Source: Candidatus Rokuibacteriota bacterium | Lineage (GTDB): Bacteria; Methylomirabilota; Methylomirabilia; Rokubacteriales; CSP1-6 | DNA length: 64,000 bases | Reading direction: 5' to 3' | Assembly: GCA_016184125.1 (NCBI GenBank) | Contig: JACPDG010000037.1 | Location: forward strand, 107,502 to 171,501 | Shown here: in pieces, positions 6,606-23,134 of the stretch | Layout: each line of letters opens with the position of its first letter | Numbering within the stretch: position 1 is the first letter of the stretch | Notes under the pieces: model-generated | Told to the model about the DNA's origin: nothing | Seen by the model: the letters and a program-made list of their open reading frames with translations, nothing else | Databases searched by the model: none | Program-made: the position numbers and the translations under genes

Positions 6606-6659
6606 CGGGCGCTGCGTCACGTGCGCTAGAGCGTGACGCGCGGAATCCTCGCGGAGCGG

Positions 6660-6745
6660 CAAGTTCCTGGCCGGTGACTCTCTTTACCCCCCACGCTCGG
6701 AACCGGCCCGGGACACCCGGGCCGGTCCTCGACAGGCCGCCGGGT
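6660..6745. repeat. Partial (right-half) copy of the hairpin repeat family; convergent-gene hairpin
   Basis: ACGCTCGGAACCGGCCCGGGACACCCGGGCCGGTCCTCGA matches the right arm of the family. It contains the stem CCGGCCCGGG/CCCGGGCCGG. Confidence 0.5.
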
Positions 6746-8226
6746 CAGCCGAGCTCGGCGGTGAGCGCGCGGATGGTCGCCCGCACGTCCTCGACCGTAT
6801 CCGTCGGGACGCCGGCCTGGAGCGCGCTCTCGACGAGGACGCCAAGCTTCTCGACCTGCACGCGCGCGGACTCCCGGTTGCCCATCTCGGCGACTTCGCG
6901 GATGACTGCCGCCCGGTCCTCGACCAACCGCTGCAGCGCGTCCGCGAGCAAGGCTCCCGGCTCCTGGCGCCGTGACTCGTCGTCGCCGGCGTAGGTCAGC
7001 GCACGCAGCAGTGCCTTCACCGCGTCCTCGTGCTCTCCGGCTTCCAGCCGGCGCATCCCGGTCTTCGTGTACGCGAGCCAGAGGCGCCGGGCGATCTCCT
7101 GGTACCGGTCGGGATGCAACGCGTCGCCGCTCTCGGTCAGCAGGCTCTCCGCCTGATCGAGTGTGGACGCGACCTCCCACTCACGGCCCTGCTGGGTGTC
7201 GCGAATCGCCGCGGCGGTCAGCTGACCGATCTCCGAGCCGAGCACCTCGGCGTGGAGCTCGTCGAAGGCCTCGCGCGTGGCCGCCGGAAGCCCGGGGTCG
7301 GCACGCGCCTCGACGAGGAGGCCGCGGGCGGCCGCGAACTCCTGGCGGCGCACGAGGCCGCGGATCACGCTCTCGCTCGCCGACCAGTAGCCGGTGTTCA
7401 CCGCCTCGCGCGCAGCGGCAATGCCCTCGTCGCCCGGGCGCTCGTTCTGCGCGCGCTCGAGCCAGGTCCGTGCCTCGCGCAGCAGGGCGAGGCGGCGCTC
7501 GTCGGGGAGCCCGCGACACCGCGTGAGGATGTCGCTCGCGACGGAGAGCGCGAGCGACGCGAGCTGCACGCGGAACGTCTCGCGCTCGGCTTGGGGCGCC
7601 ACGTCGATGGCGCGCTCGAGCGCGGTGCGCGCGGCCTCGTGATCGCCGAGCCGCTCCCGGGCGCGACCGACGAGGTTCCAGAGGGCGGCCTGCTCGCGGG
7701 GACTCGGCGCAGCCTCGTCGCCGGCGGCGAGCGCCGCCGTCGCCTGCGTCACGACATCGACGAAGCGCCCGCCCTCGAAGAGCGCCTGGCACTGCTCGAA
7801 GGGCGGCAACCGCGCGGGCGGCGGCGTGGGGCCGGCGTCGCCGGCGTCGGCACCGGACGGCAGCTCGAGCTGCGGCGTCGGAACCGCGTCCGAGGGACGG
7901 CGCGACACCGCGTCCGGGGAAACGACGGTCGACGGGCGCGCTCCACCGCGCGGGCGGCGACTCGGCACGGGGCCGGCGCGCCGCGGCATCTCCGACGCCG
8001 CCTCGCCGCCGCGCGACTCGTCGGCGACGTCCGGCGCCCGGCCAGCGGGTTCGGGAGCTGCGAGCTGCGTGATGGATCGCGGGGGCGCCGGCCGCGCCGC
8101 GGGACGGGGGCGCGGACGCCGGCTGTCGACCTCGCGCGTCGGCCAGAGCAGCTCGAGGACCGAGAACAGGATGAGCCCGGACGCGATCAGCGTGCCGGCC
8201 AGCACGAGGACGACGTCGATCAACAC
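6745..8226 (-). CDS. Hypothetical membrane-anchored TPR-like repeat protein
   Basis: Start placed at the in-frame GTG at 8226 (VLIDVVLVLAGTLIASGLILFSV is a TM helix). The protein then has a Pro/Ala-rich linker and a C-terminal alpha-helical TPR-like region. The ORF-track N-terminal extension overlaps the Gfo/Idh/MocA gene and is rejected. Confidence 0.45.
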   Translation of the reverse strand: MLIDVVLVLAGTLIASGLILFSVLELLWPTREVDSRRPRPRPAARPAPPRSITQLAAPEPAGRAPDVADESRGGEAASEMPRRAGPVPSRRPRGGARPSTVVSPDAVSRRPSDAVPTPQLELPSGADAGDAGPTPPPARLPPFEQCQALFEGGRFVDVVTQATAALAAGDEAAPSPREQAALWNLVGRARERLGDHEAARTALERAIDVAPQAERETFRVQLASLALSVASDILTRCRGLPDERRLALLREARTWLERAQNERPGDEGIAAAREAVNTGYWSASESVIRGLVRRQEFAAARGLLVEARADPGLPAATREAFDELHAEVLGSEIGQLTAAAIRDTQQGREWEVASTLDQAESLLTESGDALHPDRYQEIARRLWLAYTKTGMRRLEAGEHEDAVKALLRALTYAGDDESRRQEPGALLADALQRLVEDRAAVIREVAEMGNRESARVQVEKLGVLVESALQAGVPTDTVEDVRATIRALTAELG

Positions 8227-10890: not shown

Positions 10891-11000
10891 TCGCTCGGAG
10901 GGGGCTCCGCCTCCCTTCCGAACCTCCCCCGTCGATTGCGGGCTCTCTGATCTCCGCCCCCTCGGTTGCGACGCCGCAGGCCGCCGGATAGGATGGCGGC

Positions 11001-12614
11001 CTGAGCACCATCACCGTCCTCAACATCAATGACGATCCCGCACGGCAGTACGTGATCCGGCGCGTCTTGCAAGCCGCGGGGTTTCACGTCGTCGACGCCG
11101 CGACCGGCCGCGAGGCCCTCGATCGACTCGCCCTCGTGCGGCCCACGGTCGTCGTGCTCGACGTGAAGCTGCCGGACCTCGACGGCTTCGAGGTGTGCCG
11201 GCGGATGAAGGCGAACGCGGCGACGTCGTCCATCCCGGTGCTGATGTTCTCTGCGGTGCTCGTCGAGGACGCCGACAAGATCAAGGGGCTCGAGCACGCC
11301 GACGCCTATCTCGCCGAGCCGGTGCCTCCACCGGTGCTCACCGCGACGGTCCGGGCGCTGGCCCGCATGGCGCAGGCGGAGGCGGAGCGCTCCGAGCTCC
11401 TGGCGAGCCAGCGCATGGAGCGGGCGGCGAGCGCGCTCGTCGACGTGGGACGCCGTCTCATGACGACGTGGGACCGGATCGAGCGCAGCCGGATCATCGT
11501 CTCGGCGCTCGTCGACGTGTACCAGGCGCGGCGCGGCGCACTGCTCACGCTCGACGCGTCCCGGACGGAGCTGCGATGCGCGGCGGCCGCGGGCGAGGAC
11601 GAGGTGACCGCGCTCGTCGGCAAGACGCTCCTCGTGGACGAGGCGCTATCGGGACGTGCGGTGGCTGAGCGACGACCGCGCTGGACGGCCGACATCCTCG
11701 CGGAGCCGGACCTGAAGCTGCCCCGATGGATCCACACGATGTTCCGGACGGGCTGCCGCGCGTGGATCAGCGTGCCGCTCGTCGTGAACGACGACGTCCT
11801 CGGCGCCGTCTCGCTGGGCGACACGACCGGCCGCGTCTTCCGCAAGGACGAGATCCAGCTCCTCGAGGCCTTCGCGGCGCAGGCCGCGCTCGCTCTCCGC
11901 AACGCCAGGCTATGGAACCAGCTCGCCAAGTCCGGTGAGCGACTCGAGGCGCTGTCCCGCCGGCTGCTCGAGGTCCAGGAGGCGGAGCAACGCCGGCTCG
12001 CCCGCGAGCTGCACGACGAGATGGGCGCGGCGATCAGCGCGGTGAAGATGGAGCTCCAGGCGCTCGGGCGCCGCCCGGAGCTCGCCCCGGCGGCGCGCGA
12101 TCTCGATCGGACCGTCACCGCCGTCGACGGGCTGCTCCAGCGCGTCCGTCAGGTGTCGCTGGACCTGCGCCCGTCGCTCCTGGACGACTACGGTCTCGAG
12201 CCGGCGCTCCGCTGGTACGTCGACCGCCAGTCACAGCGTTCGCGGGCGGATATCCGCATCGCGTCCGACGTCGGGGAACTGCGCTTGCCGACCGGGGTCG
12301 AGACCGCGTGTTACCGCGTCGCGCAGGCCGCCATCACGAACGCGCTCCGCCACGCCGCCGCGAACCGGATCACGGTCGAGCTCCGTCTCGCCGGCGACGA
12401 CCTGAAGCTCACCGTCCGGGACGACGGCGCCGGATTCGATGTCGCGGCAGCGCGGGCCCGCGCGCGCCGCGGCGAGAGCCTCGGCCTGCTCGCCATGGAG
12501 GAGCGCGCCGGCCTCGCCGGCGGCACGCTCGAGATCGAATCCGTCGCGGGTCACGGCACGGAGCTGCGCGCCTCGTTTCCCGCGCGGCCCCCACGGCCGG
12601 CGACGCCCCGATGA
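11001..12614 (+). CDS. Hybrid sensor: REC + GAF + HisKA_3/HATPase_c histidine kinase
   Basis: REC (DD...K), GAF, and a NarX-type kinase core (ELHDEMG, HATPase). No ATG or GTG precedes REC strand beta1 (ITVLNINDDP). The only in-frame candidates are CTG at 11001 and GTG at 11052, which would truncate REC. The start is therefore uncertain. Confidence 0.7.
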   Translation: MSTITVLNINDDPARQYVIRRVLQAAGFHVVDAATGREALDRLALVRPTVVVLDVKLPDLDGFEVCRRMKANAATSSIPVLMFSAVLVEDADKIKGLEHADAYLAEPVPPPVLTATVRALARMAQAEAERSELLASQRMERAASALVDVGRRLMTTWDRIERSRIIVSALVDVYQARRGALLTLDASRTELRCAAAAGEDEVTALVGKTLLVDEALSGRAVAERRPRWTADILAEPDLKLPRWIHTMFRTGCRAWISVPLVVNDDVLGAVSLGDTTGRVFRKDEIQLLEAFAAQAALALRNARLWNQLAKSGERLEALSRRLLEVQEAEQRRLARELHDEMGAAISAVKMELQALGRRPELAPAARDLDRTVTAVDGLLQRVRQVSLDLRPSLLDDYGLEPALRWYVDRQSQRSRADIRIASDVGELRLPTGVETACYRVAQAAITNALRHAAANRITVELRLAGDDLKLTVRDDGAGFDVAAARARARRGESLGLLAMEERAGLAGGTLEIESVAGHGTELRASFPARPPRPATPR

Positions 12615-13261
12615 CCGTCCGCGCGCTCCTCGCGGACGACCACGCCCTGTTCCGCGCCGGGTTGCGGAAGCTGCTCGAGACCTTCGAGGGCGTCGAGATC
12701 GCAGGCGAGGCCGCCGACGGCCACGAGGCGCTGGAGCTGGTCGAGCGGTACCGCCCGCATCTGCTGATCCTCGACATCGCGATGCCCGGGCTGAACGGCA
12801 TCGAGGTGACGGCGCGCGTCGTGCGCGAGCATCCGAGCACGCGCGTCATCGTCCTCTCCATGCACTCCGCCGAGGAATATGTCCTCCGCGCGATCCGCGC
12901 GGGCGCCGACGGATACGTCCTCAAGGACGCGACGCCCGCGGAGCTCGAGGAGGCGATCCGGACGGTCAGCCGCGGGCACACGTACCTGCACCCGGCCGTC
13001 TCGAGACACGTCGTGGAGGACTACGTCCGGCGGGTGTCGCGCGAGGCGGACCCGGTGGAGCGCCTGACGCCGCGACAGCGCGAAGTGCTCCAGCTCATCG
13101 CCGAGGGGCACACGACGAAGGGCATCGCGCAGAAGCTCGGCCTGAGCGTCAAGACCGTCGAGAGCCACCGCGCGCAGCTCATGGAACGTCTGGAGATCCA
13201 CGACGTCCCGGGTCTCGTCCGCTTCGCGATCCGGTGCGGGCTGATCAAGCCCGAGGATTGA
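12611..13261 (+). CDS. LuxR/NarL-family response regulator
   Basis: REC domain plus a C-terminal LuxR HTH (LTPRQREVLQLIAEGHTTKGIAQKLGLSVKTVESHR). Its ATG overlaps the kinase stop as ATGA. Confidence 0.85.
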   Translation: MTVRALLADDHALFRAGLRKLLETFEGVEIAGEAADGHEALELVERYRPHLLILDIAMPGLNGIEVTARVVREHPSTRVIVLSMHSAEEYVLRAIRAGADGYVLKDATPAELEEAIRTVSRGHTYLHPAVSRHVVEDYVRRVSREADPVERLTPRQREVLQLIAEGHTTKGIAQKLGLSVKTVESHRAQLMERLEIHDVPGLVRFAIRCGLIKPED

Positions 13262-13432: not shown

Positions 13433-14296
13433 ATGCCCACGGACCCGTGGCTCGCGCACATCGTGTCGAAGTTCGAGAGCGAGATCCTGGCCGACTGGAT
13501 CCAGCACCAGCTCGCCGCCGACACGCTCCGTCGCGACCTGATGTCGGAGGCGGAGCTGGTGGAGCAGTCCCGTGCCTTTCTCGGGCTCCTCCGCGAGGCG
13601 GTCCAGAAGGGCAACCTCGCGGACACGACGGGGCCGGAGTGGACCCCGGTGCGCGAGATGCTCGCCTGCGTCTCGCGGGCGCGCGCCAAGCAGGGGTTCA
13701 CCGCCAGCGAGACGGCGACGTTCGTGTTCTCGCTGAAGCAGCCGCTCTTCGCCCGGCTGCGGGGCGAGGTGGGCACGGACGTGGACGCCCTCGGCGATGC
13801 GGTGTGGCGAACGACCGTGCTGCTGGACAAGCTCGGCCTCTACACCGCCGAGAGCTATCAGAAGGGCCGCGAGGAGGTCATCGCGCGGCAGCAGCAGGAG
13901 ATGATGGAGCTCTCGACCCCGGTCGTGAAGCTGTGGGAGGGCATCCTGGCCCTGCCGCTGATCGGCACCCTCGACAGCGCGCGGACGCAGATCGTCATGG
14001 AGAACCTCCTCGAGCGCATCGTGGAGACCGGAGCGTCGATCGCCATCATCGACATCACCGGTGTCCCGACCGTCGACACGCTGGTCGCGCAGCACTTGCT
14101 CAAGACCGTCGCGGCCGCGCGGCTGATGGGCGCCGACTGCATCATCAGCGGCATCCGGCCGCAGATCGCGCAGACGATCGTCCACCTCGGCGTCGAGCTC
14201 ACGAACGTGATCACCAAGGCGACCCTCGCGGACGCCTTCACCGTCGCGCTCGAGCGCACCGGGGCGACGATCGCGCCCCGCAGCGGCCATGTTTGA
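13433..14296 (+). CDS. RsbR-like stressosome sensor (N-terminal globin-like domain + STAS)
   Basis: 287 aa. The C-terminal STAS domain carries the conserved Thr-rich ITGVPTVDT region. Confidence 0.8.
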   Translation: MPTDPWLAHIVSKFESEILADWIQHQLAADTLRRDLMSEAELVEQSRAFLGLLREAVQKGNLADTTGPEWTPVREMLACVSRARAKQGFTASETATFVFSLKQPLFARLRGEVGTDVDALGDAVWRTTVLLDKLGLYTAESYQKGREEVIARQQQEMMELSTPVVKLWEGILALPLIGTLDSARTQIVMENLLERIVETGASIAIIDITGVPTVDTLVAQHLLKTVAAARLMGADCIISGIRPQIAQTIVHLGVELTNVITKATLADAFTVALERTGATIAPRSGHV

Positions 14297-14714
14297 ATCG
14301 GGGTCGAGCGTCGAGCGGATCCCCATCCTGAAGATGGGGAGCTACCTGCTGGTCACCATCCAGGTCGACATGCACGACCGCCTCGCGACGTCGCTGCAGG
14401 ACGACCTCACGGCACGGATCGTCGAGACGCGTGCCCGCGGCGTCCTCATCGACATCTCCTCGCTCGAGGTCGTCGACTCGTTCATCGGGCGGATGCTGGG
14501 CAACATCGCCGCGATGGCCAGGGTGCTCGATGCGGAGACCGTCGTCGTCGGGATGCGACCGGCCGTCGCGATCACCCTCGTGGAGCTCGGGCTCTCCCTG
14601 CCCGGCGTGCGGACGGCGCTCAACGTCGACAAGGGCATGGAGCTGCTGCGCGGGTCGGTCGAGCGAGTGGCGAAGGTGAACAGCCGTGGCCGTCGTCAAG
14701 CACGAGACGCGTGA
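14289..14714 (+). CDS. RsbS-like STAS-domain stressosome scaffold
   Basis: 141 aa single STAS domain (VLIDISSLEVVDS) immediately downstream of the RsbR-like gene. Confidence 0.8.
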   Translation: MFESGSSVERIPILKMGSYLLVTIQVDMHDRLATSLQDDLTARIVETRARGVLIDISSLEVVDSFIGRMLGNIAAMARVLDAETVVVGMRPAVAITLVELGLSLPGVRTALNVDKGMELLRGSVERVAKVNSRGRRQARDA

Positions 14715-15090
14715 GATACGGAGCGCGGAGGACATCGTGCTCGTCCGCCAGGCGGTCCGCGCCTGGGCCATCGAGCTCGGGTTCCGTCTCGTCGACCAGA
14801 CGAAGCTCGTCACGGCCGCCAGCGAGCTCGCGCGCAACATCGTCGACTACGGCGGCGGCGGCACCGTGGTGATCGAGGCGCTCAACGACGCCGAGCGCCG
14901 CGGCCTGCGCCTGCGCTTCGAGGACCACGGCCCGGGCATCGAGGACGTGGACACCGCGCTGCGCGACGGCTACACCACGGGCGGCGGTCTCGGCCTCGGG
15001 CTCGGCGGCGCGCGGCGCCTCGTGAACGAGTTCGAGATCGTGTCCGCGCCGGGCCGGGGCACCCGCGTCACGATCACCCGGTGGCGATGA
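14686..15090 (+). CDS. RsbT-like serine kinase (HATPase_c, anti-sigma regulatory factor family)
   Basis: GTG start. Single GHKL ATPase domain (ELARNIV.YGGGG, DHGPGI). Confidence 0.8.
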   Translation: MAVVKHETREIRSAEDIVLVRQAVRAWAIELGFRLVDQTKLVTAASELARNIVDYGGGGTVVIEALNDAERRGLRLRFEDHGPGIEDVDTALRDGYTTGGGLGLGLGGARRLVNEFEIVSAPGRGTRVTITRWR

Positions 15091-16109
15091 CGGCGTCCCT
15101 CGCGCTGCCCATCGCGGATACCTCGCAGGTCGGCGAGGCCCGGCGCCTCGCGACGACCCTGGCGCGCCGCGTGGAGTTCGACGACACGGACGCCGGGCGC
15201 GTCTCGCTCGCCGTCACCGAGGCGGCCACCAACCTGGTCAAGCACGCCCGCGGCGGCGAGATCCTCATGCGGGCGCTGTCCGTCCAGGAAGGCGGCGGGA
15301 TCGAGATCCTGGCGCTCGACGCCGGCGCGGGGATCCGCGACGTCGCGGCGTGCCTGCGCGACGGCTACTCGACCGCCGGCAGTCCAGGGACCGGACTCGG
15401 CGCGTTGATGCGACTGGCTTCCGTCTTCGACCTCTACTCGCTGCCCGGCCGTGGCACCGCGGTGCTCGCCCGCATCGTACGCACGCCGGGACCACGGCCG
15501 GCGGCCGGCTCGCCGATCGAGTTCGGTGTCGTGTGCGTGCCCAAGCCCGGTGAGGAGCGCTCGGGCGACGCGTGGGCCGTCGAGCCGCACGCGGGGGGCG
15601 CCGCGATCCTGATGTCCGATGGACTCGGCCACGGCCCCGACGCCGCGTCCGCGTCTGCCGTGGCGATTGCCAGGTTCCGGTCGCTCGGCTCGTCCGCGCC
15701 GGCCGCGGCCCTGTCCGTGATTCACGAAGCCATGCGGCCCACGCGGGGTGCCGCGGTCACGGTCACCGAGATCGACGTGAGCCAGCAGCTCGTCCGACAT
15801 GCCGGCATCGGCAACATCGCCGGTAGCGTGATCACGCCGTCCGCGGTGCGGCGCATGGTGTCGCACAACGGCATCGCGGGCCACGAGGCCCGCCGCATCG
15901 GCGAGTTCACCTACCCGTGGAGCGACGACGCGGTGCTCGTGCTGCACTCGGACGGTCTCAACACGCACTGGGACCTCGACCGGTACCCGGGCCTCACCGC
16001 GCGACGCCCGAGCCTCGTGGCCGGCGTGCTCTACCGTGACTTCCGGCGCCGCCGTGACGACGTCGCGGTCCTCGTCGTGCGCGGACGACGCGCGGGAGGG
16101 GCCCGGTGA
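15081..16109 (+). CDS. RsbT-like kinase domain fused to PP2C (SpoIIE-type) phosphatase
   Basis: N-terminal GHKL domain paralogous to the RsbT-like protein. The C-terminus carries PP2C motifs (GDAWAV, ILMSDGLGHG, HSDGL). Confidence 0.75.
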   Translation: MAMTASLALPIADTSQVGEARRLATTLARRVEFDDTDAGRVSLAVTEAATNLVKHARGGEILMRALSVQEGGGIEILALDAGAGIRDVAACLRDGYSTAGSPGTGLGALMRLASVFDLYSLPGRGTAVLARIVRTPGPRPAAGSPIEFGVVCVPKPGEERSGDAWAVEPHAGGAAILMSDGLGHGPDAASASAVAIARFRSLGSSAPAAALSVIHEAMRPTRGAAVTVTEIDVSQQLVRHAGIGNIAGSVITPSAVRRMVSHNGIAGHEARRIGEFTYPWSDDAVLVLHSDGLNTHWDLDRYPGLTARRPSLVAGVLYRDFRRRRDDVAVLVVRGRRAGGAR

Positions 16110-18247
16110 GCTGGTCGCTCCTGACCCTCGACGTGACGTACGAGCACGACGTCGTCGCCGCCCGGCAGCGCGCCCGGCAGATCACGGCGTTGCTCGGCTT
16201 CGACGTCCAGGACCAGACGCGCGTCGCGACCGCGGTGTCCGAGATCGCGCGCAACGCCTTCCGCTACGCGGGCGGCGGCAAGGTCGAATTCGTCGTCGAG
16301 GGACGCACCGCACCCCAGCTCCTGCTCGTCAGGATCAGCGACCACGGGCCCGGCATCCGCGACCTGGAACGCGTGCTCGACGGCAGCTACCGATCGGCGA
16401 CCGGCATGGGGCTCGGCATCGTGGGCGCGCGGCGACTGATGGACCGGTTCGACATCGAGACGGAGCCGGCGCGCGGGACCACCGTCTGGCTGCGGAAGAT
16501 CTTCCCGGCGCGCCAGAGCGTGGTCGCGGCGGGCGAGCTCGCCGAGGTGTCCACGGCCCTCGGCCGGCAGCGGCCCGAGACGCCGCTCGAGGAGGTCCAG
16601 CGCCAGAGCCAGGAGCTGTTGCGGACGCTGGAGGAGCTCCAGCGCCGGCAGGAAGAGCTGACCCGGCTCAACCAGGAGCTGGCCGACACCAACCGCGGCG
16701 TCGTCGCGCTCTACGCCGAGCTCGACGAAAAGGCCGATCATCTGCGGCGCGCCGACGAGATGAAGTCCCGGTTCCTCTCGAACATGAGCCACGAGTTCCG
16801 GACGCCGCTGAACTCGATCCTGGCGCTCTCGCGGCTCCTGCTCGAGTTCACCGACGGGCCGCTGACCGACGCGCAGAAGACGCAGGTCGGCTACATCAGG
16901 AAGGCGGCCTCCGACCTCTCGGACCTCGTGAACGACCTCCTCGACCTCGCGAAGGTCGAGGCGGGCAAGGTCATCGTCCGGCCGGTCGAGTTCGAGGTCA
17001 CGAATCTCTTCGGCGCGCTCCGCGGAATGCTGCGGCCCCTGCTCGTGACGGAGGCCGTCGCGCTGGTCTTCGAGGAGCCGGAGGCGATGCCGCCGCTCTT
17101 CACCGACGAGGCGAAGGTCTCGCAAATCCTCAGGAACTTCATCTCGAACGCGCTCAAGTTCACGGAGCGTGGCGAGGTGCGGGTGTCGGCGACGCTCGAC
17201 CCCGGCGGCGATGCCGTCGTCTTCTCCGTCGCGGACAGCGGTATCGGCATCGCCCCCGAGGACCAGGAGCGCATCTTCGAGGAGTTCTCGCAGCTCGACC
17301 ACCCCATCCAGAAGCGCGTCAAGGGCACGGGCCTGGGTCTGCCGCTCACGAAGAAGCTCGCCGCCCTGCTGGGCGGCACCGTGTGGGTGACGAGCACGCC
17401 CGGCGCCGGGTCGACCTTCTCCGTCGTCATCCCGCGGCACGACGTCGAGCCGGCGCCGCTGCTCGGCCCGCACGATCGCGCGGTCGAGCCCGGGCGCCTG
17501 CCGGTCCTCGTGGTCGAGGATCGCGCGGAGGACGCGCTGGTCTACGAGGGGTTCCTGCGCGCCTCCCGGTTCCAGCCGATCCACGCGCGCTCGCTGCGCG
17601 AGGCGCGACACGTCCTCGCCACCGTGCGCCCGCGCGTGATCATCCTGGACATCCTGCTGCGTGGCGAGAACGCCCGGGGGTTCCTGGCGACGCTCGAGCG
17701 GGACGAGCGGACCCGCGCGATTCCGATCATCGTCGCGACGACGGTCGAGGATCAGCAGAAGGGACTGGCCCTCGGCGCGAACGCCTACGGGGTGAAACCG
17801 ATCACCCGCGAATGGCTCCTCGACGCCCTCGCGATGGTGAGCGGCACCGTCCGCCCCTGCCGCGTCCTCGTCGTCGACGACGACGAGATCTCGCGGTACC
17901 TGCTGCGAAGCGTCCTCGCCGAGGCGCGGTGCACCGTCCACGAGGCGGCGAACGGCCAGGACGGCCTCGAGCGCGCCATCGACAAGCGGCCGGACGTGAT
18001 CTTCCTCGACCTCATCATGCCGGACGTCACCGGGTTCGAGGTCCTCGAGCGCTTGAAGGCCGAGCCGCGGACGCGGGACATTCCGGTGATCGTCTTCACG
18101 TCGAAGCCGCTCGCCGGTGACGAGCGCGCCTGGCTCGAGGAACGGGCCGTGGCGGTGCTGTCCAAGGAGGCCGCGTCACGCCAGGCGGGCAGCGAGGTGC
18201 TCGATGCGCTCGGGCTCGCCGCCCTCGCGTCAGGAGGCGCGTCGTGA
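16106..18247 (+). CDS. Hybrid histidine kinase: RsbT-like GHKL domain + coiled coil + HisKA/HATPase_c + 2 REC
   Basis: N-terminal domain paralogous to RsbT. H-box SHEFRTPLN, HATPase G-boxes, then two receiver domains. Confidence 0.85.
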   Translation: MSWSLLTLDVTYEHDVVAARQRARQITALLGFDVQDQTRVATAVSEIARNAFRYAGGGKVEFVVEGRTAPQLLLVRISDHGPGIRDLERVLDGSYRSATGMGLGIVGARRLMDRFDIETEPARGTTVWLRKIFPARQSVVAAGELAEVSTALGRQRPETPLEEVQRQSQELLRTLEELQRRQEELTRLNQELADTNRGVVALYAELDEKADHLRRADEMKSRFLSNMSHEFRTPLNSILALSRLLLEFTDGPLTDAQKTQVGYIRKAASDLSDLVNDLLDLAKVEAGKVIVRPVEFEVTNLFGALRGMLRPLLVTEAVALVFEEPEAMPPLFTDEAKVSQILRNFISNALKFTERGEVRVSATLDPGGDAVVFSVADSGIGIAPEDQERIFEEFSQLDHPIQKRVKGTGLGLPLTKKLAALLGGTVWVTSTPGAGSTFSVVIPRHDVEPAPLLGPHDRAVEPGRLPVLVVEDRAEDALVYEGFLRASRFQPIHARSLREARHVLATVRPRVIILDILLRGENARGFLATLERDERTRAIPIIVATTVEDQQKGLALGANAYGVKPITREWLLDALAMVSGTVRPCRVLVVDDDEISRYLLRSVLAEARCTVHEAANGQDGLERAIDKRPDVIFLDLIMPDVTGFEVLERLKAEPRTRDIPVIVFTSKPLAGDERAWLEERAVAVLSKEAASRQAGSEVLDALGLAALASGGAS

Positions 18248-19440
18248 CGGACGGCGCGCGGTCGCTCGTCCTCAACGTGGACGATTACGCGCCCGGCCGC
18301 TACGCCCGGACGCAGGTCCTGCGGGGCGCGGGCTTCGACGTCGCCGAGGCCGCGTCCGGCGGCGAGACGCTGTCGCTGGCATCGCGCTGCGAGCCCGCGC
18401 TCGTGGTCCTCGACGTCAACCTCCCCGACATGAGCGGGTACGACGTCTGCCGCCGTCTCAAGGCCGATCCGCGCACCGCGATGACGCCGGTCATCCAGGT
18501 GTCGGCGACGTTCACACACGGCAGCGACCGCGCCACGGGACTCGAGGCGGGCGCCGACGCGTACCTGACGGAACCGCTGGAGCCCCGGGTGCTCCTCGCG
18601 ACCGTCGGCACCCTGCTCCGGACGAGGCAGGCGCTCGTCGAGGCGGAGAAGGCGCGCGCCGAGGCCGAAGCTGCACGCGCGGACGCGGAGCGGGCGCGCG
18701 CCGACGCCGAAGCCGCGCGCGCAGATGCGGAGGCGACCAACCGCAGCAAGGACGAGTTCATCGCGATGCTGTCCCACGAGCTGCGCGGGCCGCTCAATAC
18801 GCTCGTCGGCTGGACCCGGCTGCTCGCCTCCGGACGGCTCGAGCCGTGGAGGGAGTCCCGGGCGCTCGACGCCCTCGCCCGCAGCATCCAGGCGCTCACG
18901 CGGCTGACGGACGATCTGCTGGACGTCTCGCGGATCGTCAACGGCAAGCTGCCCCTCGACGTCCGGCCGCTCGACCTCGGCGCCGTCATCGCCGCCGCGA
19001 TCGACGGCGTCCGCGATGCCGCGGACGCGAAGGGCGTCGTGATCGGGACGTCGATCGATTCCGAGGCCACCGCGGTCGCTGGCGACGCGCACCGGCTCCA
19101 GCAGGTCGTCTGGAACCTGCTGTCGAACGCCGTGAAGTTCACGGCGCCGGAGGGCCGCGTCGACGTGCGCCTCGAGAACCACGGGCAGGAGGTCGCGATC
19201 GTCGTGGCCGACACGGGTATCGGCATCGCGCCCGAGTTCCTGCCGCACGTCTTCGAGCGCTTCCAGCAGGCGGAGAGCGGCGAGCTGCGCCACGGCGGGC
19301 TCGGCCTCGGCCTCGCCATCGTGCGCCACCTCGTGGAGGCGCACGGCGGGCATGTCCACGCTCACAGCGAGGGCGCCGGCCAGGGTGCGGCGTTCACGGT
19401 GGTGCTGCGCCGCGACGTGGCGGCGCCGCGCGCGGCCTAG
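18244..19440 (+). CDS. REC + HisKA/HATPase_c histidine kinase with Ala/Glu/Arg coiled-coil linker
   Basis: GTG start. REC domain, a tandem-repeat linker (AEAEAARADAERARADAEAARADAEA), H-box SHELRGPLN and an ATPase domain. Confidence 0.85.
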   Translation: MTDGARSLVLNVDDYAPGRYARTQVLRGAGFDVAEAASGGETLSLASRCEPALVVLDVNLPDMSGYDVCRRLKADPRTAMTPVIQVSATFTHGSDRATGLEAGADAYLTEPLEPRVLLATVGTLLRTRQALVEAEKARAEAEAARADAERARADAEAARADAEATNRSKDEFIAMLSHELRGPLNTLVGWTRLLASGRLEPWRESRALDALARSIQALTRLTDDLLDVSRIVNGKLPLDVRPLDLGAVIAAAIDGVRDAADAKGVVIGTSIDSEATAVAGDAHRLQQVVWNLLSNAVKFTAPEGRVDVRLENHGQEVAIVVADTGIGIAPEFLPHVFERFQQAESGELRHGGLGLGLAIVRHLVEAHGGHVHAHSEGAGQGAAFTVVLRRDVAAPRAA

Positions 19441-19507: not shown

Positions 19508-19582
19508 TTGGAGCGGGCGACCGGAGTCGAACCGGCGACATCAAGCTTGGGAAGCTTGCGTTCTGCCTCTGAACTACGCCCG
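19508..19582 (-). tRNA. tRNA-Gly (anticodon CCC)
   Basis: The reverse complement folds into a cloverleaf: acceptor GCGGGCG/CGCCCGC, D-arm GTTCAGAGGCAGAAC, anticodon loop TTCCCAA, T-arm GCCGGTTCGACTCCGGT, with an encoded CCA. It is near-identical in layout to E. coli tRNA-Gly(CCC). Confidence 0.9.
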
Positions 19583-19617
19583 CTCGGCGCCCTCCATTCT
19601 ACACGAACCGGACCATG

Positions 19618-21171
19618 TTACTTGCCGTCCTTGAGCGACATGTCGTAGGCCTTGATCAGCTCGTCGCTCCGCGCCTTCCAGTTGATCCGCTTGGAGGCGC
19701 CGTAGAGGTCGAGCTGCTGGTAGAGCGGCACCGCCGGCATCTCCTCGATCCAGAGCTTGTTGATCCGGAGGTACTGCTCGCGGCGCTTCCTCTCGTCCAT
19801 GGTCGTCTGCGCCTCGTCCACGAGCCGGTTGAACTCCTCGTTGTGCCAGTTCGCGAAGATCGCCGGCGACTTGAAGAGCGGCACGTACACCGTCTCGGCG
19901 TCCATCGTCGGCGTTCCCCAGCCGATCAACCACACGGGCCCGGCCTTGTGCACGTACACCATGTTGTTGAGGTAGTTCACGAACTCGAACGTCCTCAGCG
20001 TCGTGCGGATACCGGCCTTGTGGAGCTGCCCGGTCACGGCCTCGGCGACTTCCTTGTCGCGGACGTACCGGCCCTGCGGAGCATTGAGGACGATGTCGAT
20101 GCCGTTCGGGTGCCCCGCCTCCGCGAGCAGCTTCTTGACCTTCGCGAGGTCCTGCTTGATCGGCTTCAGCGTCGCGTCGAACCCGAAGTGGAGCGGCGTC
20201 AGCATGAGCGGCGTCCGCATCGCCTTGCCGTCCAGCACGCCCTTGATGATCTCGTCCACGTCGAGCGCGTGCGCGATCGCCCGCCGCACGCGCTTGTCCG
20301 CCGTCGGGCCCCGGTACGGACCGATCGGCTTGTGCTGAGCGTCCATCTGGTGCGCGTAGATCATGAGCTGGATGGTCCGGATCGACGGCGCCGTCGACAG
20401 AAAGAGCTTCGGGTGCTTGTCGATGATAGGGGCGAGATGCGGCGGGATGTTCACGGCCAGGTCGACCTCGCCGTTCTGCAGCGCGGCGACTCGCACGGCG
20501 TCATCGGGGATCGGCCGGAAGACCACCGTCTTGATCTTCGGCGCGCCTCGCCAGTACCCCGCGTTCGCCTCGAGGACGATCTCCTCGTCCTTCGCCCAGC
20601 GCACGAACTTGTAGGGGCCGGTGCCGATCGGATTCTTCGAGATGTACGCGATGTCCTTGTCGTTGTAGGCCTTCGGCGGATACATCGCGCCGGAGACGAA
20701 GTTCATCACCGCCGAGAAGGTCGGCCACGGCTTCTTCGTGTGCACTTTCACGGTGTACGGATCGACGATCTCCACCCGGTCGATGGGCGCGAAGGATGTG
20801 GCGCCGCGGAGCTTCCCCTGACCGCCGGCGAGGCGCTCGAGGCTGAACTTGACCGACTCGGCGTTGAAGTCCTCGCCGTTGTGGAACTTCACGCCCTTGC
20901 GAAGCTTGACCTCCCACGTTGTCGGCGCGACGAGCTTCGGCATCTCGGCCGCAAGGGCGGGAACGAGCCTGAGGCTCGGGTCACGCTCGACGAGCATGTC
21001 GAAGATGTGCTTGCCGATCACGCTCGCCGGCGTCTCCGACTGATGGTGCATGTCGAGGGTCGTCGGATCGACGCCCTGCGCGATGATCACCTTCCCGGCC
21101 GGCGCAGCCCCCGCCGTGACCGGCACGAGCAGGACCGAGAGAGCGACAAACCACCGGCACCAACGAGTCAT
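19618..21171 (-). CDS. ABC transporter substrate-binding protein, family 5 (peptide/nickel/opine type)
   Basis: Signal peptide followed by an SBP_bac_5 fold (DPTTLD, KGVKFHNG). Confidence 0.85.
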   Translation of the reverse strand: MTRWCRWFVALSVLLVPVTAGAAPAGKVIIAQGVDPTTLDMHHQSETPASVIGKHIFDMLVERDPSLRLVPALAAEMPKLVAPTTWEVKLRKGVKFHNGEDFNAESVKFSLERLAGGQGKLRGATSFAPIDRVEIVDPYTVKVHTKKPWPTFSAVMNFVSGAMYPPKAYNDKDIAYISKNPIGTGPYKFVRWAKDEEIVLEANAGYWRGAPKIKTVVFRPIPDDAVRVAALQNGEVDLAVNIPPHLAPIIDKHPKLFLSTAPSIRTIQLMIYAHQMDAQHKPIGPYRGPTADKRVRRAIAHALDVDEIIKGVLDGKAMRTPLMLTPLHFGFDATLKPIKQDLAKVKKLLAEAGHPNGIDIVLNAPQGRYVRDKEVAEAVTGQLHKAGIRTTLRTFEFVNYLNNMVYVHKAGPVWLIGWGTPTMDAETVYVPLFKSPAIFANWHNEEFNRLVDEAQTTMDERKRREQYLRINKLWIEEMPAVPLYQQLDLYGASKRINWKARSDELIKAYDMSLKDGK

Positions 21172-21258
21172 GGGGCCTCCTCACGACGAGGGACGATGTC
21201 AGGCTAAGTGGTCGTTACTGTATGGAATCGGACCTCATCGGTCAAGCTGTGCCACCTG

Positions 21259-22722
21259 TCAGGCGTGCCGTCCCGCCGGCGTGCGCTCCGTCGCTTCGAG
21301 CCATGCCAGCGTCTCGTCGCGGCTCTGCACGAGTCCGAGGTCCTGCGCCTCGCGCGCCCGCCCGAGGAGGCGCCCGACCTCGGGGCCCGGCGACAACCCG
21401 AAGTGCGCCATGACGTCGCCACCGCGCACGAGCGGCGGCGCGGCCGTCGTCGTCTCGGCCTCCTGCCAGCCGGCGAGGAGCTCACGCACGACACGAGCGC
21501 GCCGCCATACGAGGAGCGGCGAGGCGCCCGTCACGGCCGCGGCGTCGACCAGCGTCAGCAGGAGCAGGTCGCGCGCGTCCCCGCCCAGGTCGCGGAAGAA
21601 CCGATAGCGCGCGCGGGGCGTGATCGGCCCGGCCTGGCCGAGGTGCATCGGACGCAGGTGATGCCGCACCAGGCGCTCCAGGAGCGCGACCACGCGCTCG
21701 GGCAGCCGCAGGCGCTCGCCGATCGCACGCACGCGCGCGGCACCGAGGAGATCGTGCTCGAAGAAGCGTACGCGTCCCTTCACCCGGCGCCGCGTCTCCG
21801 GCTTCGAGACGTCGTGGAGCAACGCGGCCAGCTTGAGGACGTGCGAGCGCTGGAAGCCGCCCCCCACCGGCTCCCGCACGTGCTCGACCAGTTCCTCGCC
21901 GAACGGGCTCAGCGCATCGAGCCGGCGCAGCAGGCGGTCGGCGCCGTCGACGGCTCGGAGCGAATGCTCGAGCACGCTGAACCGGTGCGGCGCCGGCTGC
22001 GCGGTCGCGCGCATCGGTTCGATCTCGGGCAGGATCGCGGCGAGCAGCGTCAGGGCATCGAGGCGGCGCAGCGCCCGCCCGGACGACGGGAGCCGGAGGA
22101 TGGCCAGCAGCTCGTCGCGCACGCGCTCGGCAGCGACGTCCGCGATCCGCGCCGCGACGCCGCGGATCGCCCGGATGGTGCGCGGAGCGAGCGCGAGCCC
22201 GAGCTCGGCCTCGAGCCGCCCTCCGCGGAGCGCACGGAGGGGGTCGTCGTCGAGCACGCGCGGCGACGGCAGCCGCAGACGCCGGAGCGCGAGATCCCGG
22301 AGGCCGCCGGTGGGATCCACGATCGGCGCGCGCCCGTGCGCGAGCAACGGGACGAGCGGCACGGCGAGCGCGTTGACCGTGAAGTCCCGCGCGCGCAGGT
22401 CCCCCTCCAGCGTCGTGGCCCGGAAGTCGGTGAGATCGAGGCGCGCGCGCTCGGTGACCACGCGCGCCGAGGCATGCTCGGCGTCCAGCTCCACCAACGT
22501 GCCGCCGAGCCGCTCCGCGAGGCGCCGGCCGAGCGCGAGCGCGCCATGCCGCACGGCCACGTCGAGATCGGCAGGTCCCGTCGTCGCCTCGCGCCGGCGG
22601 ACCGCGTCGCGGACGGCGCCGCCGACCAGCACCGGCTCCGTGTCTGTCGCCGCTTCCGCCACGACGCCGCCGAGCAGCGCAACGTGCGCGGCCGCGAGCC
22701 TGTCGAGCCGGAACCACCGCAT
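21259..22722 (-). CDS. CCA-adding enzyme / poly(A) polymerase-family nucleotidyltransferase with HD domain
   Basis: Start at the ATG at 22722 (MRWFRLD...). PolyA_pol head (LVGGAVRD, RDFTVNAL) and a C-terminal HD domain (LLHDVSKP). Confidence 0.75.
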   Translation of the reverse strand: MRWFRLDRLAAAHVALLGGVVAEAATDTEPVLVGGAVRDAVRRREATTGPADLDVAVRHGALALGRRLAERLGGTLVELDAEHASARVVTERARLDLTDFRATTLEGDLRARDFTVNALAVPLVPLLAHGRAPIVDPTGGLRDLALRRLRLPSPRVLDDDPLRALRGGRLEAELGLALAPRTIRAIRGVAARIADVAAERVRDELLAILRLPSSGRALRRLDALTLLAAILPEIEPMRATAQPAPHRFSVLEHSLRAVDGADRLLRRLDALSPFGEELVEHVREPVGGGFQRSHVLKLAALLHDVSKPETRRRVKGRVRFFEHDLLGAARVRAIGERLRLPERVVALLERLVRHHLRPMHLGQAGPITPRARYRFFRDLGGDARDLLLLTLVDAAAVTGASPLLVWRRARVVRELLAGWQEAETTTAAPPLVRGGDVMAHFGLSPGPEVGRLLGRAREAQDLGLVQSRDETLAWLEATERTPAGRHA

Positions 22723-23134
22723 GCGCCCAGCATACGTCCCGCGCCACGTGGACGGTGCGCCGCAGCCTCCAGATGACGCCAGCGGTCCGCGGCCGCAGTT
22801 CACGCCACACGTCGGGGGTCGCCGCACGGATCGCGTCAGGGATCGCGGCGCGGAGCGCGCCGGACGGCGCGCCGGACGGCGCGCCGGGATGCGGCGGGCA
22901 TGGCACGTCGCGGGCGGACGCGCACCGCTGACACAGCCCGGTATCCCGGTCGGGCCGCGAGACGCTTCGCGGCGGGCGTCGGGGCGCACGGCGCGCCCGT
23001 GTCCGGACGGGGCGCGGCAGGTTGACCGAGGGCGAGGCCGATCGGCGCCGCGCGGTTGCCGGGCAACGTCGCCGCGGCGTGCCGCCGCGTGATGTCCCCG
23101 GAGGCGCGCCGCCCCGCGCGCCGGCGCGCGCCGC

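What the first reader, a model, noticed from the sequence alone, without database searches (positions are those of the whole stretch)
13433..19440. Stressosome (RsbR-S-T) wired to a two-component output, with three paralogous RsbT-type kinase domains (free, fused to PP2C, fused to a hybrid histidine kinase)
No RsbV, RsbW or sigma-B-type partner-switch genes follow the stressosome core. Instead the RsbT-like GHKL domain recurs as the N-terminus of a PP2C phosphatase (15081) and of a hybrid histidine kinase with two receivers (16106). A REC-histidine kinase with an AEAEAARADA... coiled coil follows (18244), and a REC-GAF kinase plus LuxR regulator precedes (11001, 12611). Stressosomes coupled to two-component or c-di-GMP outputs are known from Vibrio and others. 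The kinase-phosphatase fusion and the kinase-domain-on-histidine-kinase fusion go a step further and suggest intramolecular partner switching.
Basis: partly seen in the sequence, partly recalled or inferred. Interest (0 to 1): 0.6.

Follow-up and report, generated by a model that had tools for sequence, protein, structure and literature searches.

The report
Stressosome operon with three RsbT-type domains
This is a real six-gene stress-sensing operon in which the switch kinase RsbT occurs three times (free, fused to the reset phosphatase, fused to a histidine kinase). It is one copy of a very widespread, long-annotated but experimentally unstudied cassette, also found in Deinococcus radiodurans, not a peculiarity of this genome.

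Summary
Window 13433-19440 (+) holds six translationally coupled genes:
- RsbR (RsbRD_N+STAS)
- RsbS (STAS)
- RsbT
- an RsbT-like domain fused to an RsbX-type PP2C
- an RsbT-like domain joined by a conserved helical stalk to HisKA-HATPase_c-REC-REC
- a REC-HisKA-HATPase_c kinase

The refutation test fails. Both N-terminal domains group with B. subtilis RsbT (106-147 bits on the class HMMs) and not with RsbW or SpoIIAB (6-45 bits). The clade has 98% bootstrap support. The STAS phospho-acceptor residues and the kinase ATP-binding motifs are conserved.

The architecture is not special to this window. All 80 related loci fetched, from about ten phyla, have the same gene order. So does D. radiodurans R1 megaplasmid MP1 (DR_B0028/29). 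The two fusion proteins fall in more than 6000-7900 protein clusters, and PGAP has a name for one of them.

Most likely mechanism (inferred): the phosphatase and the histidine kinase each carry their own stressosome-docking module, so the phosphorylation state of RsbR/RsbS directly gates a His-Asp phosphorelay. "Intramolecular partner switching" is not supported, because neither fusion contains a STAS domain.

I file it as a new member of a known, uncharacterised kind. Interest is moderate.

The parts
13433..14296 (+). RsbR: RsbRD_N sensor domain plus C-terminal STAS. S182 and T216 are the equivalents of B. subtilis RsbRA T171 and T205.
   Evidence: Pfam PF14361 at 100.8 bits and PF01740. Alignment to BsRsbRA. 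S182 and T216 are conserved in 75/75 loci.
14289..14714 (+). RsbS: single STAS domain. S64 in the VDSF motif is the equivalent of B. subtilis RsbS S59.
   Evidence: Pfam STAS. Alignment to BsRsbS. The Ser is conserved in 81/81 loci.
14686..15090 (+). T1: free RsbT-type GHKL serine kinase, 134 aa.
   Evidence: HATPase_c_2. BsRsbT scores 147 bits on the T1 class HMM. The N-box, G1 and G2 motifs and R21 are invariant in 82/82.
15081..16109 (+). T2-PP2C: RsbT-like domain (aa 1-135) fused by a short Pro-rich linker to an RsbX-type group II PP2C (aa 146-334). The start is probably ATG 15087.
   Evidence: Pfam. The PP2C matches Moorella MtX 3ZT9 (E 1.6e-16) and BsRsbX 3W40 by sequence, and by fold with TMt 0.90 and 0.82. 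Metal-binding Asp residues, the DGLGHG motif and the GN motif are invariant. AF2 model: pLDDT 86, pTM 0.89. ATP-binding motifs are present in 82/82.
16106..16501 (+). T3 domain: the RsbT-like N-terminal domain of the hybrid histidine kinase (aa 1-132).
   Evidence: HATPase_c_2 at 67.5 bits. 42% identical to RsbT. BsRsbT scores 118 bits on the T3 HMM. Best PDB folds are SpoIIAB-SpoIIAA and RsbW-RsbV complexes.
16583..16753 (+). Hyper-conserved helical stalk (aa 160-216, motif ELxDTNRGVVALYAELDxKA) running continuously into the DHp helix that carries H229.
   Evidence: AF2 predicts a single helix over residues 160-247. 19/56 columns are at least 90% conserved across 74 loci, more than in the DHp or CA domains. 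The distance from the GT motif to the His is fixed at 105 aa in 42 of 58 loci.
16760..18247 (+). Hybrid histidine kinase core of T3: HisKA (H229), HATPase_c, REC1 (about aa 465-575) and REC2 (about aa 587-691).
   Evidence: Pfam and NCBIfam hybrid-HK models.
18244..19440 (+). D2: REC, heptad-repeat coiled coil, HisKA, HATPase_c. The REC belongs to a class that lacks the canonical Lys.
   Evidence: Pfam. The position is conserved after T3 in 49 loci. The Lys is replaced by Q/E/H/A/S in 48/48. The 21-nt tandem repeat lies at 18643-18732.
11001..12614 (+). Neighbouring REC-GAF-HisKA_3-HATPase_c kinase whose receiver is of the D2 class. Possible output branch. Not part of the conserved cassette.
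   Evidence: Pfam. The REC scores 151 bits on a D2-REC HMM built from 48 other loci, against 32-73 bits for the other RECs in the window. Start-codon problem.
12611..13261 (+). NarL/LuxR-type response regulator (REC+GerE), overlapping the stop of the HisKA_3 kinase gene. Candidate transcriptional output. Window-specific neighbour.
   Evidence: Pfam. ATGA overlap. The only full-length, high-scoring match outside the window is in a contig of the same organism, L004.
19509..19583 (-). tRNA-Gly(CCC), marking the downstream end of the operon.
   Evidence: ARAGORN.

Best explanation
A six-gene RsbR-RsbS-RsbT-RsbX stressosome cassette with a two-component output, in which the stressosome-binding kinase RsbT has been triplicated.

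Shown:
- RsbR and RsbS keep the phospho-acceptor Ser/Thr residues.
- T1, T2 and T3 are all RsbT-type GHKL domains. They keep the Arg that corresponds to SpoIIAB R20.
- The ATP-binding motifs are kept in all T1 and T2 copies and in 68/74 T3 copies.
- The PP2C is RsbX-type.
- T3 is joined to the histidine-kinase DHp by one long helix of fixed length and very high conservation.

Inferred:
- RsbR/RsbS form the STAS scaffold, and free RsbT phosphorylates it on stress.
- The RsbX phosphatase is tethered to the same scaffold by its own RsbT-like domain, so the reset enzyme is recruited to its substrate.
- The hybrid kinase uses its RsbT-like domain as its input domain. Binding to, or release from, unphosphorylated STAS subunits is transmitted down the coiled-coil stalk to switch autophosphorylation.
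- Phosphoryl groups then pass through the REC domains to D2-class REC-kinases. In this window these are D2 and the upstream REC-GAF-HisKA_3 kinase, ending at the adjacent LuxR regulator.

On this reading the covalent fusion replaces the RsbT-to-RsbU_N docking step of Bacillus.
For: - Domain calls.
- RsbT-type grouping. BsRsbT scores 147/106/118 bits on the T1/T2/T3 HMMs. SpoIIAB scores 40/26/45, RsbW 6/23/22 and HK CA domains about 10.
- The clade (T1+T2+T3+BsRsbT) against (RsbW+SpoIIAB) has 98% bootstrap support. T1, T2 and T3 are each monophyletic at 70/99/75%.
- R21, the N-box, G1 and G2 are invariant in 82/82 T1 and 82/82 T2, and present in 68/74 T3.
- RsbS S64 is conserved in 81/81. RsbR S182 and T216 are conserved in 75/75.
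- The PP2C matches MtX and RsbX.
- Stalk helix, its conservation and its fixed length.
- The same gene order is found in about 80 loci from about ten phyla and in D. radiodurans MP1.
- All of the top 150 representatives of T3+stalk are histidine kinases of several DHp classes.
- No RsbU_N domain was found in any cassette protein.
- The open literature leaves open how stressosomes without RsbU_N partners reach their kinases (PMC9237108).
- The T3 domain folds like SpoIIAB and RsbW in their STAS complexes.
- The upstream kinase has a D2-class receiver.
Against: - No binding or phosphorylation data exist for any member.
- Free RsbT is retained in every locus with no obvious target, so it may itself be the messenger to T3.
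- Six T3 lineages have lost the ATP-binding motifs, so T3 catalysis is not essential.
- The order of the phosphorelay and the link to the LuxR pair are guesses. That pair is not conserved outside this organism.
- D2-class receivers lack the canonical Lys, so they may not be ordinary phospho-acceptors.
Confidence: 0.55

Rival explanations
1. Free RsbT (T1) is the only stressosome client and the only messenger. After release it binds the hyper-conserved stalk of T3, or heterodimerises with the T3 and T2 RsbT-like domains. This activates the kinase and the phosphatase much as RsbT rigidifies the RsbU linker. The fused domains are receivers of T1, not stressosome binders.
For: - T1 is kept in 79-82 of 82 loci although no RsbU_N target exists.
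- The stalk is the most conserved part of T3, as expected for a protein-binding site.
- The coiled-coil linker mechanism is described for RsbT-RsbU (PMC12143880).
- Some T3 domains have lost ATP binding.
Against: - T2 and T3 keep the Arg equivalent to SpoIIAB R20, and T2 keeps all ATP-binding motifs. This fits STAS binding and phosphorylation.
- The stalk shows no similarity to RsbU_N.
- There is no evidence that RsbT-type domains heterodimerise.
Confidence: 0.25
2. T2-PP2C is a self-contained bifunctional kinase/phosphatase that sets the RsbS/RsbR phosphorylation level, in the manner of the Rv1364c kinase-phosphatase fusion. T3 is an ATP-sensing or energy-sensing input domain unrelated to the STAS scaffold.
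For: - ATP-binding motifs are invariant in 82/82 T2.
- The T2 model is compact, with pTM 0.89.
- Rv1364c appears among the sequence and fold matches.
Against: - It does not explain why T3 is RsbT-type, is always placed next to R-S-T, and keeps the STAS-contact Arg.
- Six T3 lineages lack the ATP motifs, which argues against ATP sensing as the conserved role.
Confidence: 0.12
3. RsbR and RsbS here do not build a large stressosome. They act as simple soluble anti-kinase antagonists in an ordinary partner switch with three kinase-type partners.
For: Assembly cannot be read from sequence. The N-terminal domain (RsbRD_N) differs from those of the structurally studied RsbRA and globin types.
Against: The STAS domains align closely along their whole length with B. 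subtilis RsbRA and RsbS, including the scaffold-forming regions and the phospho-sites. The R-S-T gene order and an RsbX-type phosphatase are the hallmarks of stressosome modules (PMC9237108).
Confidence: 0.08

Closest known systems
Deinococcus radiodurans R1 megaplasmid MP1 operon DR_RS15570-15595 (histidine kinases DR_B0028/DR_B0029)
   Same: Identical six-gene architecture: RsbRD_N-STAS, STAS, RsbT, T2-PP2C, T3-stalk-HK-REC and REC-HK. The stalk motif TNRGVVALYAELEEKA is present.
   Different: T3 has one REC instead of two. The operon is plasmid-borne. About 44% identity at the T2-PP2C. No mechanistic study was found. It is mentioned only as 'thought to be co-regulated' with an anti-sigma-type operon (PMC6501615).
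Vibrio vulnificus / V. brasiliensis RsbRSTX module with D1-D2 two-component output
   Same: An R-S-T-X core followed directly by two-component proteins, with no sigma-B, RsbV or RsbW. The stressosome is assumed to control a phosphorelay or c-di-GMP (PMC9237108, PMC4976288).
   Different: In Vibrio, RsbR carries a haem globin, RsbX is a single-domain PP2C, and D1 has a PAS domain and no RsbT-like domain. The link from RsbT to D1 is unknown (BACTH negative). Here the phosphatase and the kinase each carry an RsbT-type domain.
Bacillus subtilis RsbR-S-T-U-V-W-sigmaB-X and Moorella thermoacetica MtR-S-T-X-G
   Same: Homologous RsbR/RsbS STAS proteins with the same phospho-sites, an RsbT kinase and an RsbX-type phosphatase.
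   Different: In those systems the output is reached in trans: released RsbT binds an RsbU_N domain on a PP2C (RsbU) or on a GGDEF protein (MtG). No RsbU_N domain is present here. The RsbT-like domain is fused in cis to the output enzyme.
Mycobacterium tuberculosis Rv1364c (PAS-PP2C-RsbW-like kinase-STAS fusion)
   Same: A GHKL serine-kinase domain and a PP2C domain in one polypeptide. It appears among weak sequence and fold matches.
   Different: Rv1364c has the opposite domain order, a kinase more like RsbW, and its own STAS domain, so a genuinely intramolecular switch is possible there. T2-PP2C has no STAS and no PAS domain.

Membership tests
Stressosome core module (RsbR-RsbS-RsbT) | RsbR: variable N-terminal sensor domain plus C-terminal STAS with phosphorylatable residues at the RsbRA T171 and T205 positions | tested here: met
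   RsbRD_N+STAS. S182 and T216 align to T171 and T205 and are conserved in 75/75 loci.
Stressosome core module (RsbR-RsbS-RsbT) | RsbS: single STAS domain with the conserved Ser (BsRsbS S59) | tested here: met
   S64 in the VDSF motif aligns to S59 and is conserved in 81/81 loci.
Stressosome core module (RsbR-RsbS-RsbT) | RsbT-type GHKL serine kinase encoded directly after rsbS | tested here: met
   BsRsbT scores 147 bits on the T1 HMM, against 40 for SpoIIAB and 6 for RsbW. The clade has 98% bootstrap support.
Stressosome core module (RsbR-RsbS-RsbT) | Assembly of RsbR/RsbS into a megadalton pseudo-icosahedral particle that sequesters RsbT | not testable with these tools
   Needs biochemistry or cryo-EM. 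No multimer prediction was available.
RsbRSTX minimal module (Pane-Farre 2005; Heinz 2022) | RsbX-type (group II, 'GN' motif) PP2C encoded immediately after rsbT | tested here: met
   Best PDB matches are MtX 3ZT9 and BsRsbX 3W40 by sequence and by fold. G244-N245 are invariant. The motif definition comes from PMC4524716.
RsbRSTX minimal module (Pane-Farre 2005; Heinz 2022) | RsbX is a single-domain PP2C | tested here: not met
   A 135-aa RsbT-type domain precedes the PP2C in the window and in 82/82 loci.
Sigma-B partner-switching cascade (RsbU-RsbV-RsbW-SigB) | RsbV (STAS), RsbW (anti-sigma kinase) and a sigma-B-type sigma factor linked to the module | tested here: not met
   A phmmer scan with the window's domains found no further STAS, RsbT-like or PP2C ORF in the 64-kb window. 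The cassette ends at a tRNA gene. The scan's sensitivity to distant RsbW relatives is limited.
RsbU_N-coupled stressosome outputs (RsbU, MtG, RsbU_N-histidine kinases) | N-terminal RsbU_N four-helix-bundle domain that docks released RsbT | tested here: not met
   No PF08673 hit on T2, T3 or D2 at E<=0.01. With E up to 10, the T3 linker matches only generic coiled-coil families.
Hybrid histidine kinase (two-component) | HisKA H-box His, HATPase_c catalytic domain, and receiver domain(s) with the acceptor Asp | tested here: met
   HisKA, HATPase_c and 2x Response_reg. H229 lies in SHEFRTPLN and is nearly invariant. The REC Asp motifs (VIILD, VIFLD) were read from the sequence.
Rv1364c-type multidomain partner-switch fusion | PP2C, anti-sigma kinase and STAS antagonist in one polypeptide, allowing intramolecular switching | tested here: not met
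   No STAS domain in T2 or T3. The domain order is reversed. Similarity is weak: 3KE6 at E 0.0018.

The most novel reading that the evidence does not exclude
The stressosome of this cassette serves as a shared docking platform for three competing RsbT-type clients: a kinase, a phosphatase and a histidine kinase. The phosphorylation pattern of the STAS lattice would then directly set how many histidine-kinase dimers are held or released. The hyper-conserved T3 stalk would be a second docking site for released free RsbT, giving a two-input gate. That would be a direct physical coupling between a Ser/Thr partner-switch scaffold and a His-Asp phosphorelay, which has not been demonstrated for any stressosome.
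Probability: 0.25. Interest if true: 0.65.

Novelty: new member of a known kind. Interest (0 to 1): 0.4.

Why it matters
How stressosomes outside the Bacillales pass their signal to non-sigma outputs is still open. Heinz et al. 2022 found no RsbT-D1 interaction and no RsbU_N domain in most downstream proteins.

This cassette class is probably one of the commonest stressosome types in soil and freshwater bacteria. It suggests a concrete answer that can be tested: the output histidine kinase and the reset phosphatase each carry their own RsbT-like module. Tractable hosts with the same cassette exist, including D. radiodurans R1, Nostoc, Methylobacterium, Janthinobacterium and Bradyrhizobium. The window itself adds only one more member, from a Rokubacteria/Methylomirabilota MAG.

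Tried and rejected
- A phmmer search of RsbT alone against PDB sequences found nothing at E<=0.01. A profile search was needed. No RsbT chain turned up in the PDB sequence set.
- A Biopython bootstrap tree timed out. I replaced it with my own NJ plus 300 bootstraps. The branching order among T1, T2, T3 and BsRsbT stays unresolved (support <=30%).
- I could not open Pane-Farre 2005 or Makarova 2001. So I cannot say whether they already describe the RsbT-domain fusions.
- Literature searches for the Pfam names, for model organisms (uninformative) and for 'RsbT-like' found no paper describing the fusions. HltA (PMC9430166) is an unrelated GAF-PP2C.
- I considered that the T3 linker might be a hidden RsbU_N domain and rejected it.
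- I considered a link from alphaproteobacterial T3 kinases to the PhyR/HWE general stress pathway. The Methylobacterium and Acidisoma T3 proteins are of the HisKA 'AHDFNN' type with a REC. A few metagenomic T3 proteins are HisKA_2/HWE. This stays a lead only.
I did it with phmmer instead.
- Model coordinates are not exposed, so the interdomain geometry of T2 could not be inspected.
Full report
**What is there.** The window is 72% G+C. It matches at 100% identity a protein of a Candidatus Rokubacteria (Methylomirabilota) MAG. Between 13433 and 19440 on the + strand lie six genes whose starts and stops overlap by 4-29 nt. Pfam and NCBIfam identify them as:
- RsbR (RsbRD_N + STAS, 287 aa)
- RsbS (STAS, 141 aa)
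- RsbT (HATPase_c_2, 134 aa; here called T1)
- a 340-342-aa protein with an N-terminal HATPase_c_2 domain and a C-terminal SpoIIE/PP2C domain (T2-PP2C)
- a 713-aa protein with HATPase_c_2, HisKA, HATPase_c and two receivers (T3-HK)
- a 398-aa REC-HisKA-HATPase_c kinase (D2)

A minus-strand tRNA-Gly(CCC) at 19509-19583 ends the unit. Upstream, separated from rsbR by 171 nt, lie a REC-GAF-HisKA_3 kinase and a REC-LuxR regulator. A scan with the window's own domains found no further STAS, RsbT-like or PP2C gene in the 64 kb.

In the window, T1-T3 and T1-T2 are each 42% identical, and T2-T3 are 34% identical.

I recalled the B. subtilis RsbT, RsbW and SpoIIAB sequences and verified them by exact look-up. 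I then built class HMMs from 82 T1, 82 T2 and 74 T3 domains taken from related loci. The scores were:

| Query | T1 HMM | T2 HMM | T3 HMM |
|---|---|---|---|
| BsRsbT | 147 | 106 | 118 |
| SpoIIAB | 40 | 26 | 45 |
| RsbW | 6 | 23 | 22 |
| HK catalytic domains | about 8-14 | about 9-10 | about 7-11 |

In a neighbour-joining tree with 300 bootstraps, T1+T2+T3+BsRsbT separate from RsbW+SpoIIAB with 98% support. Each class is monophyletic (70, 99 and 75%). The order among the four is unresolved. The domains are therefore old paralogues of RsbT, and the finding is not refuted.

**Functional residues.**
- RsbS S64 aligns with BsRsbS S59 and is conserved in 81/81 loci.
- RsbR S182 and T216 align with RsbRA T171 and T205 and are conserved in 75/75 loci. 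The S59 and T171 numbering is from PMC7522486. T205 is from my own knowledge and is consistent with the count.
- In the RsbT-type domains, the Arg that aligns with SpoIIAB R20 is invariant in all three classes. By my recollection of the SpoIIAB structural papers this is a STAS and sigma contact residue.
- The N-box (E47, N51), G1 (D80xGxG) and G2 motifs are present in 82/82 T1, 82/82 T2 and 68/74 T3. Six T3 lineages are degenerate: two Nitrospira, Massilia, a Burkholderiaceae MAG, Cystobacter and Archangium.
- The PP2C half of T2 keeps the metal-binding Asp residues, DGLGHG, SDG and the group-II 'GN' motif (motif definition in PMC4524716).
- Its best solved relatives are the stressosome phosphatases MtX (3ZT9) and BsRsbX (3W40). 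This holds by sequence (E 1.6e-16 and 5e-6) and by fold (TM 0.90 and 0.82).
- The AF2 model of T2 is compact (pLDDT 86, pTM 0.89).

**The T3 stalk.** AF2 on T3(1-310) gives the GHKL domain at residues 1-132 and a short helix at 142-154. One uninterrupted helix then runs over 160-247, through the H-box His229 (pLDDT 85). Across 74 loci the stalk (161-216, E..QN.EL...ELEDTNRGVVALYAELD..A) has 19/56 columns at least 90% conserved. The DHp has 4/74 and the CA domain 18/119. The distance from the conserved GT motif of the T domain to the His is exactly 105 residues in 42 of 58 cases. The stalk shows no RsbU_N similarity. The T3 domain folds like SpoIIAB and RsbW as seen in their complexes with STAS partners.

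**How common is it?**
- The T2-PP2C query returned 7970 90%-identity clusters out of 8000 candidates scored. Many carry the PGAP name 'ATP-binding SpoIIE family protein phosphatase'.
- T3(1-240) returned 6100 clusters.
- An exhaustive search with T3(1-216) found 529 50%-identity representatives at E<=1e-30. The top 150 are all T3-HK with zero, one or two receivers. They include HisKA and HisKA_2/HWE cores.
- In the 80 loci fetched, the order RsbR | RsbS | RsbT | T2-PP2C | T3-HK is kept wherever the contig allows. The loci come from Cyanobacteria, four proteobacterial classes, Acidobacteria, Nitrospira, Gemmatimonadetes, Planctomycetes, Verrucomicrobia, Myxococcota, Rokubacteria and others. D2 follows in 49 of them. 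A cyanobacterial chromosome shows the same with precomputed Pfam calls.
- The cassette is also on plasmids (95 PLSDB records), among them D. radiodurans R1 MP1. Its genes DR_RS15570-15595 have exactly this architecture.
- The two Deinococcus kinases are DR_B0028 and DR_B0029. PMC6501615 (citing Makarova 2001) describes them as 'thought to be co-regulated' with the adjacent anti-sigma-type operon.

**Comparison with the literature.**
- Heinz et al. 2022 describe RsbRSTX modules with various two-component or c-di-GMP outputs. In the globin-type modules RsbX is a single-domain PP2C. Some downstream proteins carry RsbU_N and most do not, and the RsbT-D1 link is unresolved.
- Baral et al. 2025 propose that RsbT rigidifies a coiled-coil linker. 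They note RsbU_N-histidine kinases in stressosome operons.
- None of the open-access papers I could search describes RsbT-type domains fused to RsbX or to the kinase.

**Mechanism.** The best-supported reading is that the phosphatase and the histidine kinase each carry a copy of the stressosome-docking kinase domain.
- For T2, this would tether the reset phosphatase to its substrate lattice. It might also add a second kinase activity.
- For T3, the RsbT-like domain sits where PAS or GAF sensor domains sit in cytosolic kinases, at the top of a rigid coiled coil. Binding to or release from STAS subunits could therefore switch the kinase.

This is inference from homology, conservation and geometry. 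No interaction was tested.

The main rival is that free RsbT, which is always retained, is the messenger and binds the conserved stalk or the fused domains.

**The window-specific neighbours.**
- The upstream REC-GAF-HisKA_3 kinase has a receiver of the D2 class. It scores 151 bits on an HMM built from the D2 receivers of 48 other loci. The other receivers in the window score 32-73 bits.
- In Nitrospira the D2 position is itself occupied by a REC-PAS-GAF-HisKA_3 kinase.
- This makes the upstream kinase-LuxR pair a plausible transcriptional output branch here. The pair is not conserved elsewhere.

**Verdict.** The claim of going beyond the known is not supported, because this is one member of a very large, long-annotated cassette family. 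The family itself is mechanistically unstudied and offers a testable answer to how stressosomes reach two-component outputs.

Noticed in passing
window 10989-11060: The REC domain of the REC-GAF-HisKA_3 kinase begins ('LSTITVLNINDD') right after an in-frame TAG at 10989-10991. That is upstream of the first canonical start codon (GTG 11052). The gene probably starts at a non-canonical codon (CTG 11001 or ATC 11010), or the sequence has an error.
   Followed up: partly
window 18244-18640 (D2 REC) and 11001-11390; D2 genes of L001-L084: The receiver class found in D2 and in the upstream REC-GAF kinase lacks the otherwise near-universal receiver Lys. The motif is Y-L-x-[Q/E/H/A/S]-P in 48/48 loci, never K. 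The acceptor Asp and the acidic pocket are kept.
   Followed up: partly
window 18643-18732: The REC-to-DHp linker of D2 contains a 21-nt tandem repeat (3.4 copies; also seen as 42 nt x 2.1). Each copy encodes one heptad (ARADAEA). The coiled coil has been lengthened in whole-heptad steps.
   Followed up: partly
window 16583-16753 and T3 genes of 74 loci: The stalk between the RsbT-like domain and the DHp (ELEDTNRGVVALYAELDxKA) is more conserved than the catalytic parts of the kinase. No Pfam family covers it.
   Followed up: partly
L058, L059 (Nitrospira), L083, L065, L027, L084: Six T3 domains have lost the N-box and G1 ATP-binding motifs while keeping the stalk and the kinase core. ATP binding by T3 is therefore dispensable in some lineages.
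   Followed up: partly
P0291, P0299 (metagenomic proteins): The T3+stalk module also occurs on HisKA_2/HWE-type kinases, one of them with a PAS domain. By my own knowledge, HisKA_2/HWE is the kinase class that feeds the alphaproteobacterial PhyR general stress response. Their genomic context was not examined.
   Followed up: no
L085 (D. radiodurans R1 plasmid MP1, NC_000958.1 25219-31023): The same six-gene cassette sits on the MP1 megaplasmid. IS elements and an alpha/beta hydrolase gene lie on one side and parB on the other. 95 PLSDB plasmid records carry a T2-PP2C homologue (58 of them Phaeobacter), which suggests horizontal spread.
   Followed up: partly
window 19615-21207 and 21208-22776: Two long + strand ORFs (530 and 522 aa) downstream of the tRNA have no Pfam or NCBIfam match and no relative in any fetched locus. 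Long ORFs overlap them on the opposite strand, so it is unclear whether they are real genes.
   Followed up: no
L048, L058, L059, L062 (Nitrospira), about 12.6-15.7 kb in each locus: In Nitrospira the gene after T3 is a 970-1020-aa protein. In the one sequence read (L058) the order is REC, PAS/GAF region, HisKA_3-type kinase, REC. This replaces the short REC-HisKA D2 and resembles a fusion of this window's D2 receiver with its upstream REC-GAF kinase.
   Followed up: partly
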